From the IMG/VR virus record IMGVR_UViG_2645728048_000011: DNA of 5,904 nt; one strand, 5' to 3'. Below the pieces are notes generated by a model. That model worked only from the letters and a program-made list of their open reading frames with translations, ran no database searches and was not told the DNA's origin. A program made the position numbers and the translations under genes. This DNA is from a virus. Taxonomy: Duplodnaviria > Heunggongvirae > Uroviricota > Caudoviricetes. This document shows positions 3,751 through 4,510 of the stretch, in pieces (the first letter of the stretch is position 1; each line of letters starts with the position of its first letter).

Positions 3751-3871
3751 GTATTTTTCCCTTCTGGTTAACATGACATACCAATAACTCTTGTCTAAAA
3801 AGCCAGCAAGATAAAAAGTCAGTATTCACGACCACCAGCGTGTTTACTGTACTGCACCAGGTTTACAGGTA

Positions 3872-3896
3872 CAAAAAAACCGCTCAGCGGCGGGTT
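3872..3896 (-). terminator. Weak terminator-like hairpin with U7 tail on minus strand (A7 / short GC stem / TTT on plus strand), possibly bidirectional
   Basis: Plus aaaaaaaccgctcagcggcgggttt: short stem ccgc/gcgg (3-nt loop), extendable with a bulge to aaacc/ggttt. On the minus strand it is followed by UUUUUUU. The stem is short, so confidence is low. Confidence 0.25.
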
Positions 3897-3958
3897 TAAG
3901 TTGTGTGGCGAAGTAACCACTCTTAACAGCATATTTGATTTTTTACGATTGTAAACGG

Positions 3959-3987
3959 TTGATTATTCATCTCCAATAAAAATAATT
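3959..3987 (+). promoter_or_regulatory. Candidate sigma70 promoter for the plus-strand lipoprotein gene
   Basis: -35 TTGATT (3959-3964), 16-17 bp spacer, -10 AATAAT/ATAATT (3981-3987), in an AT-rich divergent intergenic region about 35 nt upstream of the lipoprotein ATG. Weak SD (GGATAAG) precedes the ATG. Confidence 0.3.
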
Positions 3988-4020
3988 GTGTGGGTATGCC
4001 CTTAACAATGGATAAGAAAC

Positions 4021-4467
4021 ATGAATAAAATGACTGTATTATTACTTAGCGCAACTATCATTTCAGGTTGTACTTCTTCCGTACCATTGATAAAGAAAAC
4101 TCAATCAGGAAAACCTGAGGGGGTTTATCAAAATACGACAAAAGATAAAGTCAAAGATGCCCTTGTGAATTACTGCAATAGTAGAGGGTTGACAATTTAC
4201 AACGCGGATAACAGCAGTGTTATATGTGGTAAAGAACTGGAAGGCGGGTCTGCTGTTTTTGGACAAATGTTAATCGGCAATGCCTATTCAACAACCCCGG
4301 TATCAAAAGTCAAATTTACTATCGCTCAAGTTAATAACGATACAAAAGTGTGGGCCGATATGTGGATGGAAACTCAAATGGCAATGGGGCAAGTACAACA
4401 AATGGCTATAACAGACAACGCAAGCAAAAACACTATCCAACAACGTCTTGATGAATTAAAACCTTAA
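4021..4467 (+). CDS. Lipoprotein of unknown function (moron; signal peptide + lipobox IISGC), opposite strand to the phage late operon
   Basis: 148-aa ORF, MNKMTVLLLSATIISGCTSS...: basic N-terminus, hydrophobic core and lipobox Cys17 with Thr at +2 (no Asp, so not an inner-membrane retention signal). Mature part is Asn/Gln/Thr/Lys-rich. The region is visibly AT-richer than the flanking phage genes. A hairpin follows 20 nt after the stop. Confidence 0.7.
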   Translation: MNKMTVLLLSATIISGCTSSVPLIKKTQSGKPEGVYQNTTKDKVKDALVNYCNSRGLTIYNADNSSVICGKELEGGSAVFGQMLIGNAYSTTPVSKVKFTIAQVNNDTKVWADMWMETQMAMGQVQQMAITDNASKNTIQQRLDELKP

Positions 4468-4478
4468 GTAAATTAATT

Positions 4479-4510
4479 AAATAAAATGGGGAGAATAAAT
4501 CGACTCCCCA
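4479..4510 (-). terminator. Intrinsic terminator on minus strand just downstream of Q (candidate tR'-type late terminator); also the 3' hairpin of the convergent lipoprotein gene
   Basis: 7-bp stem tggggag/ctcccca (4487-4493 / 4504-4510) with 10-nt loop. On the minus strand it is followed by UUUUAUUUAAUU. On the plus strand there is no T-run after the hairpin. Confidence 0.55.

What the first reader, a model, noticed from the sequence alone, without database searches (positions are those of the whole stretch)
3775..4510. Convergent, AT-rich lipoprotein moron with its own promoter and hairpin, candidate lysogenic-conversion or superinfection-exclusion factor
The only plus-strand gene in the window encodes a secreted lipoprotein (lipobox IISGC, no Asp at +2, so outer-membrane sorting under the standard +2 rule). 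It is AT-richer than its neighbours and has a plausible sigma70 promoter (TTGATT-N16/17-AATAAT). Its position and orientation mirror lambda bor (a lysogen-expressed lipoprotein on the opposite strand near the lysis genes), though the sequence is unrelated to Bor as recalled. Prophage lipoproteins in such positions often mediate serum resistance, receptor masking or entry exclusion (Cor/Llp-type).
Basis: partly seen in the sequence, partly recalled or inferred. Interest (0 to 1): 0.55.

Follow-up and report, generated by a model that had tools for sequence, protein, structure and literature searches.

The report
Prophage accessory lipoprotein gene, function unknown
This is a real, self-contained accessory gene ("moron") in an E. 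coli lambda-like prophage; it encodes an outer-membrane-type lipoprotein from a widespread, mostly phage-borne family that nobody has characterised, so it is a reasonable but unproven candidate for a factor that alters the host cell envelope.

Summary
Window 4021-4467 (+) encodes a 148-aa protein with a canonical lipobox (IISG|C17) and Thr at +2. It is 12 GC points below its flanks and is the only plus-strand gene. It is flanked by a sigma70-like motif (3959-3986) and a hairpin (4487-4510).

Comparative data show a ~620-bp cassette (about 3929-4551). It lies between a short Q21-family antiterminator gene and a conserved leader plus terminator. In related phages the same slot holds other convergent, AT-rich cargo: an NmpC/OmpD-type porin, a Blc lipocalin lipoprotein, or two-gene cassettes.

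The protein is phrog_3152 ("unknown function"). It has no Pfam, NCBIfam, PADLOC or PDB sequence match and is unrelated to Bor. An exhaustive profile search finds 791 cluster representatives across Proteobacteria. Eleven of 13 inspected loci are prophage or mobile-element contexts, at many different positions.

The AlphaFold model (pLDDT 85) is a helix-grip-like alpha/beta domain; its closest solved fold is the BamC N-terminal domain, weakly.

The moron reading is well supported; the function is inferred only. The hairpin's T-tract is on the opposite strand, and the position matches the nmpC/lc slot, not bor. A receptor-specific Cor/Llp-type mask is disfavoured.

The parts
4021..4467 (+). Lipoprotein CDS (148 aa plus stop), a member of phrog_3152
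   Evidence: ORF list. phrog_3152 E 5e-103 over the full length. Homologs with 50-99% identity. RefSeq calls it 'hypothetical protein' WP_097467680.1.
4021..4071 (+). Signal peptide with lipobox IISG|C; the Cys17 codon is 4069-4071 and +2 is Thr
   Evidence: PS51257 pattern met. Cys invariant in 19 of 19 close homologs; none has Asp at +2.
3959..3986 (+). Sigma70-like promoter motif TTGATT-16-AATAAT; the predicted start near 3993 would give a ~28-nt leader
   Evidence: Consensus scan, 9 of 12 matches. The Citrobacter homolog has TTGATT-17-TATTAT upstream. Upstream regions do not otherwise align. Function untested.
4010..4016 (+). Weak Shine-Dalgarno-like GGATAAG, 5-11 nt upstream of the ATG
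   Evidence: Read from the sequence. A GGA/GGGGA is seen at a similar distance in homolog loci.
4487..4510 (.). Hairpin GGGGAG-N10-CTCCCC, between the lipoprotein stop and the Q stop; the T-tract is on the minus strand
   Evidence: Fold: -11.2 kcal/mol on the plus strand, -15.3 kcal/mol on the minus strand with flanks, z -2.9 and -3.4. The terminator scan reports it on the minus strand only.
3929..4551 (.). Inserted cassette (moron): AT-rich DNA (GC 0.36) between the conserved leader and the Q stop codon
   Evidence: The left junction is sharp at 3928, from alignment with cdtI, 569R4 and PhiR40_1. The right limit is the Q stop codon. GC was computed for 3935-4551.
3872..3928 (-). Backbone, not cargo: a conserved 36-nt leader plus an intrinsic terminator (GCCGCTGAGCGG followed by T7)
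   Evidence: Near-identical in cdtI (three differences) and 569R4, which carry different cargo, and in PhiR40_1. The terminator is annotated in SfV and Ayreon. Scan hit at 3891-3879.
4552..4932 (-). Short (126 aa) Q21-family antiterminator Q, convergent with the lipoprotein gene
   Evidence: PF06530 E 2e-51. E 7e-9 to Q21 structures 6P18/6JNX.

Best explanation
SHOWN: The feature is a ~620-bp horizontally acquired cassette in a lambdoid E. coli prophage. It sits in a cargo slot between a Q21-family Q gene and the conserved leader/terminator that precedes the late genes. It encodes a pre-lipoprotein.

INFERRED from established rules (signal peptidase II lipobox; Lol +2 rule): the protein is exported, lipidated at Cys17 and sorted to the inner leaflet of the outer membrane. 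It would hang in the periplasm on a ~15-residue tether. It would carry a ~115-residue helix-grip-like alpha/beta domain, stabilised by a probable Cys52-Cys69 disulfide.

INFERRED from anatomy: it is probably transcribed in the lysogen from its own AT-rich promoter. During lytic growth, Q-modified late transcription would run antisense through it and should shut it down.

MOST LIKELY FUNCTION (inference, not shown): it is an envelope-level accessory factor that benefits the lysogen. The strongly conserved loops (SGKPE, GNxYSTTP, ETQMAxGQ) would bind a conserved periplasmic or outer-membrane component, not a particular phage receptor. The best guess for the benefit is generic exclusion of incoming phages at adsorption or DNA transit. 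It would thus work like a superinfection-exclusion lipoprotein, but it is not a member of the Cor, Llp or Bor families.
For: Cassette and slot:
- SfV has only ~107 bp, with a promoter-like motif, between Q and the same terminator.
- Phages with the short Q carry other convergent AT-rich cargo at this spot. Examples are a porin in mEp332 and PhiR29_1, Blc in Lambda_ev087, and two-gene cassettes in cdtI and 569R4.
- The junction is sharp at 3928.

Lipoprotein:
- The lipobox and the lack of Asp at +2 are conserved.
- Two further Cys are invariant or nearly invariant, and in the one inspected homolog that lacks them (P0100) both are absent.

Moron behaviour:
- Homologs are solitary inserts between K and I (Salmonella) and between the tape-measure gene and M (Citrobacter).
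- Others lie in the nin region (Phytobacter), in a P1-like element (Enterobacter), and in prophage early regions (Burkholderia and a metagenomic relative).
- One more lies next to a terminase gene.
- All ten loci measured are less GC-rich than their flanks.
- Three homologs have a canonical terminator on the gene strand.

Conserved partner:
- The motifs persist in 791 cluster representatives, including fusions to PDZ, TPR/YfiO-like and SHOCT domains.

Fold:

Prevalence: 185 of 5426 complete E. coli genomes.
Against: - There is no expression, localisation or phenotype data, and no paper mentions the family.
- There is no match to any PADLOC defence model or to any annotated superinfection-exclusion PHROG.
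- The promoter motif is weak and not demonstrably conserved.
- In the window the downstream hairpin lacks a gene-strand T-tract.
- Fold matches are generic (TM 0.4-0.5, E ~4e-3) and do not indicate a function.
- Two of 13 loci are ordinary chromosomal contexts, so a housekeeping envelope role is possible for some members.
Confidence: 0.4

Rival explanations
1. It is a host-fitness or virulence conversion factor of the Bor/TraT kind. The lipoprotein would change envelope properties (serum/complement resistance, stress or detergent tolerance, adhesion) rather than phage susceptibility.
For: It has the same general anatomy as lambda bor: a lysogen-type orientation, opposite to the late genes, encoding a lipoprotein. 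Neighbouring alleles of the slot encode a porin and the Blc lipocalin, which are envelope physiology proteins. Carriers come from gut, poultry, pig, dog and human clinical E. coli.
Against: It has no similarity to Bor beyond the signal peptide. The family occurs in environmental alpha- and beta-proteobacterial prophages and in insect or nematode symbionts, where serum resistance is irrelevant.
Confidence: 0.2
2. It is a Cor/Llp-type receptor mask. The lipoprotein would bind the periplasmic face of the outer-membrane receptor used by its own phage and inactivate it. This would exclude co-receptor phages and protect progeny from debris.
For: It is an outer-membrane-sorted lipoprotein. Three homolog loci lie inside the tail-tip module next to the host-specificity gene J. 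That resembles the linkage of cor and llp to receptor-binding genes (own knowledge).
Against: - The E. coli copy is not linked to tail genes.
- The receptor-binding C-termini of J in four carriers are not shared.
- A P1-like element carries a homolog.
- Motifs are conserved across classes of Proteobacteria that lack a common receptor.
- The mature protein is 132 aa, about twice the size of Cor or Llp (size of Cor/Llp from own knowledge).
- There is no profile match to other PHROGs.
Confidence: 0.12
3. It is an inhibitor or immunity protein in the periplasm. It would neutralise a peptidoglycan hydrolase, a bacteriocin or type VI effector, or modulate BAM/OMP assembly.
For: The domain is tethered in the periplasm and has conserved loops. 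Family members are fused to PDZ or to a BamD/YfiO-like TPR domain. The closest solved fold is the BamC N-terminal domain. The Burkholderia-type homologs sit next to a ubiquitin-like (ThiF/E2/JAB) cluster in a region rich in accessory genes.
Against: The fold similarity is weak and generic (TM 0.43-0.54). There is no consistent partner gene next to it in 13 loci. There is no PADLOC match.
Confidence: 0.13
4. It is a phage life-cycle (late or lysis-associated) function rather than a lysogen function, for example modulating lysis or virion release.
For: In the window it lies near the lysis cassette. In Salmonella and Citrobacter it is co-directional with the tail operon, so it would also be made late.
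Against: In E. coli it is antisense to late transcription. It occupies many unrelated positions and is absent from most related phages: only 2 of 50,697 phage records carry it. It is therefore dispensable for the lytic cycle.
Confidence: 0.07

Closest known systems
nmpC / lc porin moron of DLP12 and phage PA-2 (seen here in mEp332 and PhiR29_1)
   Same: Same slot and orientation. It is a convergent, compositionally distinct envelope-protein gene between a short Q21-family Q and the lysis genes. From my own knowledge, the PA-2 lc porin is expressed in lysogens and lowers OmpC, the phage's receptor; this was not tested here.
   Different: The protein is unrelated: a 365-aa beta-barrel porin against a 148-aa lipoprotein. 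In mEp332 the porin cassette's hairpin has a gene-strand T-run; the window's hairpin does not.
Lambda Bor (PF06291)
   Same: A small prophage lipoprotein on the strand opposite to the late genes, near the lysis genes. The signal peptide and lipobox align.
   Different: No similarity in the mature part. bor lies downstream of Rz; this gene lies upstream of the lysis cassette, next to Q.
Cor (phi80/N15/HK022) and Llp (T5) superinfection-exclusion lipoproteins
   Same: A phage-encoded lipoprotein predicted to be sorted to the outer membrane. Some homologs sit in tail-tip modules.
   Different: No profile match. It is about twice the size. Its carriers do not share a receptor-binding domain. The family spans bacterial classes.
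BamC N-terminal helix-grip domain; Flpp3/DUF3568; DUF4468 TBP-like lipoproteins
HK97 gp15-type morons inside tail operons
   Same: Homologs are stand-alone inserts with their own terminator between tail genes. From my own knowledge, HK97 gp15 is a superinfection-exclusion moron.
   Different: gp15 is an inner-membrane protein and is unrelated in sequence. No exclusion data exist for this family.

Membership tests
Bacterial lipoprotein (signal peptidase II substrate) | N-terminal signal peptide with a lipobox matching PROSITE PS51257 and an invariant Cys | tested here: met
   ISGC with Cys17. The pattern is met in 28 of 33 distinct sequences checked; four of the five that fail the strict pattern still have a lipobox-like motif ending in Cys. 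Cys is invariant in the 19 close homologs.
Bacterial lipoprotein (signal peptidase II substrate) | Outer-membrane sorting: no Asp at +2 (Lol avoidance rule) | tested here: met
   +2 is Thr in the window and Ala, Thr, Val or Ser in homologs, never Asp. This is a rule-based prediction only.
Bacterial lipoprotein (signal peptidase II substrate) | Actual lipidation and membrane localisation | not testable with these tools
   Needs globomycin or palmitate labelling and membrane fractionation.
Moron (independent accessory transcription unit in a phage genome) | Lies between genes or sites that are adjacent in related phages | tested here: met
   SfV has Q, a promoter-like motif and the terminator without cargo. 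Other cargo occupies the same slot. Homologs split K|I and H|M.
Moron (independent accessory transcription unit in a phage genome) | Nucleotide composition distinct from the neighbours | tested here: met
   GC 0.378 against 0.495 in the window. The CDS is below its flanks in all 10 loci, by 0.03 to 0.15.
Moron (independent accessory transcription unit in a phage genome) | Own promoter | tested here: inconclusive
   A 9-of-12 motif in the window and in the Citrobacter locus. None was found on the gene strand in the Salmonella or Phytobacter loci. Upstream regions do not align.
Moron (independent accessory transcription unit in a phage genome) | Own terminator | tested here: inconclusive
   A canonical ACCCGC..GCGGGTTTTTTT follows the stop in the Salmonella, Citrobacter and Jejubacter homologs. 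In the window the hairpin's T-tract is on the other strand.
Moron (independent accessory transcription unit in a phage genome) | Expressed from the repressed prophage | not testable with these tools
   Needs RNA-seq or 5' RACE on a lysogen.
PHROG phrog_3152 | Full-length profile match | tested here: met
   E 5.2e-103, residues 1-148 on profile positions 1-148 of 148; annotated 'unknown function'.
Lambda Bor (PF06291) | Match to the Bor profile in the mature region | tested here: not met
   No Pfam hit at E <= 0.01. hhalign against lambda Bor aligns only residues 1-39, the signal peptide.
Lambda Bor (PF06291) | Position downstream of Rz | tested here: not met
   bor is at 46459-46752, after Rz, in lambda. 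Here the gene lies between Q and the terminator upstream of the lysis genes.
Cor / Llp receptor-masking exclusion lipoproteins | Sequence or profile similarity to Cor or Llp | tested here: not met
   A PHROG scan at E <= 10 gives only phrog_3152, plus signal-peptide-level hits to Rz1-type spanins. BFVD gives nothing with E <= 0.001. Cor and Llp sequences were not aligned directly.
Cor / Llp receptor-masking exclusion lipoproteins | Carried by phages that share one receptor specificity; linked to the receptor-binding gene | tested here: inconclusive
   Three loci are in tail-tip modules, but the E. coli copy is not. The PhiR40_1 J C-terminus is not shared with the other three carriers; the Salmonella and Jejubacter J proteins share only about 37% identity there. 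The sample is small.
Cor / Llp receptor-masking exclusion lipoproteins | Exclusion phenotype | not testable with these tools
   Needs efficiency-of-plating and adsorption assays.
Known anti-phage defence systems (PADLOC-DB 2.0) | Match to a defence-protein model | tested here: not met
   0 families at E <= 0.01.
BamC N-terminal / helix-grip lipoprotein domains | Significant structural superposition | tested here: inconclusive

The most novel reading that the evidence does not exclude
An unnamed, Pfam-less lipoprotein domain family is predominantly a phage- and mobile-element-borne moron across alpha-, beta- and gamma-proteobacteria. It has 791 cluster representatives and the conserved motifs SGxPE, GNSYSTTP and ETQMAFGQ. 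Under this reading it represents a new, generic class of envelope-acting prophage factor. It would bind a universally conserved periplasmic or outer-membrane component (for example BAM, peptidoglycan or OmpA-like proteins). The effect would be to block phage entry, or to remodel the outer membrane, independently of receptor identity.
Probability: 0.2. Interest if true: 0.6.

Novelty: new member of a known kind. Interest (0 to 1): 0.3.

Why it matters
Prophage morons that encode envelope proteins are a main route by which temperate phages change host phage susceptibility and virulence. This family is common: it is in 3.4% of complete E. coli genomes and has hundreds of distinct clusters elsewhere. 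It has no curated family or functional annotation and is absent from defence-system catalogues.

Two things would be added if it proves to be an exclusion or envelope-remodelling factor. The first is a new protein family for that toolkit. The second is a defined exchangeable cargo slot beside Q21-type antiterminators, which would be useful for mining further accessory genes.

If it has no phenotype, it is simply one more hypothetical moron.

Tried and rejected
Searches that found nothing:
- Pfam, NCBIfam and PADLOC scans of the protein gave nothing. A Pfam scan of 15 diverse members gave only noise.
- A PDB sequence profile search gave nothing below E ~1.
- BFVD (viral structures) had no hit with E <= 0.001. 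The afdb50 library was unavailable.
- Rfam and tRNA scans of the window found nothing.
- Literature searches on moron, lipoprotein, Q, the phage names and accession numbers found no paper on this protein. The only paper naming PhiR40.1 and PhiR55.1 concerns another defence system.

Leads rejected:
- The UniRef name 'type IV secretion system putative lipoprotein VirB7' on the Xenorhabdus homolog. I take it to be a generic lipoprotein label; the Pfam scans found no secretion-system family.
- The 37-aa ORF that PhiR40_1 annotates across the terminator. Its ATG is created at the cassette junction and is absent in cdtI.

Left unresolved:
- I tried to locate the late promoter pR' for the short Q, to decide whether the cargo lies inside the pR'-tR' leader. 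The Q21 papers give the Q-binding element only in figures. The alignments show no conserved promoter.
- I tested the idea that carriers share a receptor-binding domain. They do not, but only four were compared.
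Full report
**Context**

The window is the late-regulatory and lysis region of a lambdoid E. coli prophage, with the phage's forward direction on the minus strand. In order it holds:

| Window coordinates | Feature |
|---|---|
| 5888-4935 | DUF968/HNH protein |
| 4932-4552 | 126-aa Q antiterminator of the Q21 family (PF06530) |
| 3774-3547 | 75-aa protein (phrog_331) |
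| 3396-2344 | N6/N4 DNA methylase |
| 2277-2062 | phage-21-type holin |
| 2062-1565 | lysozyme |
| 1580-1101, 1348-1163 | Rz and embedded Rz1 |
| 1079-717 | ORF11CD3 protein |

The Q protein matches the solved Q21 structures at E 7e-9. PF06530 is the Q21/Q933W family according to bioRxiv 10.1101/651190. RefSeq annotates the same layout in a 100%-identical chromosome and calls the plus-strand gene a hypothetical protein.

**Check of the observation**

- **ORF and lipobox.** ORF 4021-4467 (+) encodes 148 aa starting MNKMTVLLLSATIISGC. It satisfies the PROSITE lipobox rule, with Cys17 and Thr at +2.
- **Composition.** GC is 0.378 (GC3 0.329), against 0.495 and 0.523 in the left and right flanks.
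- **Promoter motif.** TTGATT-16-AATAAT lies at 3959-3986. It matches 9 of 12 positions. The AT-rich 1.2-kb region gives 7 such hits where shuffles give 3.0 +/- 1.6, so it is plausible rather than demonstrated.
- **Hairpin.** The hairpin at 4487-4510 is real (dG -11.2 kcal/mol, z -2.9). Its T-run follows the stem on the minus strand, and the terminator scan reports it only on that strand. It therefore looks like a stop for transcription leaving Q at least as much as a 3' end for the lipoprotein mRNA.

**A cassette in a cargo slot**

Window 3775-3896 is shared at 92-98% identity with SfV, mEp460, Ayreon and Stx2c phages, where a rho-independent terminator is annotated. In SfV, Q is followed by only ~107 bp. 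That stretch contains a TTGCAT-17-TAAGAT motif and then this terminator, with no cargo.

Phages with the short Q share a further 36-nt leader with the window. Identity begins abruptly at window 3928. Upstream of that point each phage carries different DNA, always on the strand opposite to Q:

| Phage(s) | Cargo in the slot |
|---|---|
| Window, PhiR40_1, PhiR55_1 | the lipoprotein gene |
| mEp332, PhiR29_1 | NmpC/OmpD-type porin |
| Lambda_ev087 | Blc lipocalin lipoprotein |
| cdtI, 569R4 | two-gene cassette: a 286-313-aa soluble protein (DUF6731 in cdtI) plus a 147-182-aa protein with a strongly hydrophobic segment; GC 0.30-0.35 |

mEp460_4F5 carries a variant of the soluble protein in the same slot.

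The feature is therefore a ~620-bp cassette, about 3929-4551, in an exchangeable slot beside the Q gene. This is the position that nmpC occupies in DLP12 and lc in phage PA-2 (my own knowledge). It is not the position of lambda bor, which lies downstream of Rz.

The cassette occurs in 185 of 5426 complete E. coli genomes. Only 2 of 50,697 phage records carry it.

**The protein family**

The protein is a full-length member of phrog_3152, annotated 'unknown function' (E 5e-103). It has no Pfam, NCBIfam, PADLOC or PDB sequence match.

A word-indexed search found 29 relatives in Enterobacterales. Nineteen full-length ones share 26 invariant columns. These include the lipobox Cys, Cys69 (Cys52 is nearly invariant), and the motifs SGKPE, GNxYS and KVW.D.W.E.QM..G.

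An exhaustive profile search of 1.84 billion representatives found 791 proteins at E <= 1e-3 and 396 at E <= 1e-10. Some are fused at the C-terminus to PDZ, TPR/YfiO-like or SHOCT domains, or to a Cys-rich domain. Every source that names a member calls it hypothetical or simply a lipoprotein, apart from one automatic UniRef 'VirB7' label on the Xenorhabdus homolog. Named hosts include Photorhabdus, Xenorhabdus, Providencia, Burkholderia, Cribrihabitans and Hyphomonadaceae.

The lipobox is present in almost all members and none has Asp at +2. The two internal cysteines are present in almost all inspected members, and the one member that lacks them lacks both. This suggests a disulfide and hence an exported protein.

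**Genomic contexts of homologs**

Thirteen loci were inspected.

| Host or source | Context of the homolog |
|---|---|
| E. coli (this window) | between Q and the late-gene terminator |
| Salmonella | between tail genes K and I |
| Jejubacter | accessory island between K and I |
| Citrobacter | between the tape-measure gene and M |
| Enterobacter | P1-like element with DarA/DdrB |
| Phytobacter | nin-type region between a RecA-like gene and RusA |
| Burkholderia | prophage early region beside an HTH repressor and a ThiF/E2/JAB/Prok_Ub cluster |
| Metagenomic relative of the Burkholderia locus | same early-region context |
| Cribrihabitans | beside DUF4055 and DUF927 genes |
| Metagenome (P0078) | beside a resolvase and DUF5906 |
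| P0255 (NCBI assembly) | beside a terminase gene |
| Hyphomonadaceae | ordinary chromosomal context |
| Metagenome (PDZ fusion) | ordinary chromosomal context |

In all ten loci measured the gene is less GC-rich than its surroundings. In Salmonella, Citrobacter and Jejubacter it is followed at once by a canonical gene-strand terminator, ACCCGC..GCGGGTTTTTTT. The Citrobacter copy also has TTGATT-17-TATTAT upstream. No partner gene recurs.

This is textbook moron behaviour. It also shows that the function does not depend on the carrier's module or virion type.

**Structure**

The AlphaFold2 model built on the 19-sequence alignment has mean pLDDT 84.9 and pTM 0.75. After the signal peptide and a ~15-residue tether, it forms a beta-alpha-beta-beta-alpha-beta-beta-beta-alpha domain.

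- Foldseek ranks the BamC N-terminal domain first, but weakly (E 3.8e-3, TM 0.43/0.54).

This places the protein among helix-grip-like lipoprotein domains. It does not assign a function.

**Mechanism**

What is shown: a foreign cassette, a conserved pre-lipoprotein, and a predominantly mobile-element distribution.

What follows from established rules: export, lipidation at Cys17, and Lol-dependent sorting to the periplasmic face of the outer membrane.

What follows from the anatomy: the gene can only be expressed from a promoter of its own, because it is antisense to every phage operon around it. Q-modified late transcription must traverse it in antisense. Expression in the lysogen and silencing in lytic growth is therefore the simplest reading.

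Function is inferred. I favour an envelope-level benefit to the lysogen through binding of a conserved envelope component, with generic phage exclusion as the most likely benefit (confidence about 0.4 for the whole statement). The reasons are:

- The binding-type loops are conserved from alpha- to gamma-proteobacteria.
- The carriers are diverse. The J C-terminus of PhiR40_1 is not shared with the other three carriers compared, and a P1-like element also carries a homolog.
- The sister alleles of the slot encode outer-membrane proteins or look like small defence cassettes.

The same facts argue against a Cor/Llp-style mask matched to the phage's own receptor. Rivals are Bor-like host fitness, a periplasmic inhibitor or immunity role or BAM modulation, and a late-cycle role.

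**Comparison with known families**

- **Bor:** not a member. The only similarity is the signal peptide.
- **Cor/Llp:** not a detectable member.
- **Known defence families:** no match.
- **Moron criteria:** position and composition are met; own promoter and own terminator are inconclusive in this locus.
- **Closest analogue by position and orientation:** the nmpC/lc porin moron.

**Unresolved**

The late promoter for this short Q was not located.

- In cdtI and 569R4 only 12-23 bp separate the Q stop from the cargo stop.
- Nothing is conserved upstream of the 36-nt leader.
- The window's minus-strand motif TTTACA-16-TATGCT (3955-3928) straddles the junction.

It therefore remains open whether the cargo lies inside the pR'-to-terminator leader, and whether the 4487-4510 hairpin shields the cargo from constitutive antisense transcription.

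**Verdict**

The feature is real and correctly described. It is an ordinary kind of element, a prophage moron encoding an envelope lipoprotein. It belongs to a widespread, uncharacterised and mostly phage-borne family. Interest is modest (0.3), and its function is testable with simple phage-plating and fractionation experiments.

Noticed in passing
window 3929-4551; L004 3155-4666; L005 3161-4715; L013 1690-2976; L014 2280-2960; L015 1576-2862: The interval between short Q21-family Q genes and the late-gene leader/terminator is an exchangeable slot. It always carries AT-rich cargo convergent with Q: the phrog_3152 lipoprotein, an NmpC/OmpD-type porin, a Blc lipocalin lipoprotein, or two-gene cassettes.
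   Followed up: partly
L004 3255-4643 (phage cdtI orf54/orf53); L005 3308-4703 (569R4); L016 3242-4168: Two-gene cassettes in the same slot: a 286-313-aa soluble protein (DUF6731 in cdtI) followed by a 147-182-aa protein with a strongly hydrophobic segment. GC is 0.30-0.35 and there is no PADLOC match. They look like uncharacterised candidate defence or abortive-infection pairs.
   Followed up: partly
window 3872-3928 (minus strand): A 36-nt leader, TGTTAAGAGTGGTTACTTCGCCACACAACTTAAA, plus a terminator. It is conserved almost base for base among short-Q phages that carry different cargo. There is no Rfam match. By analogy with 6S/StxS-type RNAs it could be the 3' part of a short constitutive late-promoter RNA, but no conserved promoter was found upstream.
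   Followed up: partly
window 4487-4552 (minus strand): The hairpin next to the Q stop has its T-tract on the Q-sense strand. The late promoter for this Q type could not be located. In cdtI and 569R4 there is no room for it between Q and the cargo.
   Followed up: partly
window 1163-1348 (minus strand): A second lipoprotein gene lies in the window: Rz1 (61 aa, [20 protein letters not shown]...), embedded out of frame in Rz (1101-1580). This is the normal spanin arrangement.
   Followed up: no
window 2344-3396 and 3547-3774 (minus strand): A 350-aa N6/N4 DNA methyltransferase (best PADLOC model: type II MTase, E 3e-152) and a 75-aa phrog_331 protein lie between the terminator and the holin. The block is conserved in SfV, Ayreon, cdtI and Stx2c phages. 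The methylase is orphan and late-expressed.
   Followed up: no
L018 1-3917 and L026 1-2821: The Burkholderia-type homologs (244 aa, with a Cys-rich C-terminal extension) sit in a prophage early region directly beside a ThiF (E1) / Prok-E2 / JAB / Prok_Ub cluster, a bacterial ubiquitin-like system.
   Followed up: no
L009 1-5181: The Enterobacter homolog lies in a P1-like element next to DarA_N and ddrB-ParB genes. A 119-aa ORF overlaps its stop codon by 4 nt.
   Followed up: no
L001 4045-4158 (= window 3819-3932, minus strand): GenBank annotates a 37-aa ORF across the terminator in PhiR40_1, 569R4 and mEp460_4F5. In the window its ATG is created at the cassette junction and is absent in cdtI. 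It is probably spurious.
   Followed up: yes
proteins P0096, P0099, P0100, P0106, P0145, P0162: Distant family members fuse the lipoprotein domain to PDZ, to a BamD/YfiO-like TPR domain, or to PDZ plus SHOCT. No Pfam model covers the shared N-terminal domain, even though the family has ~800 cluster representatives.
   Followed up: partly
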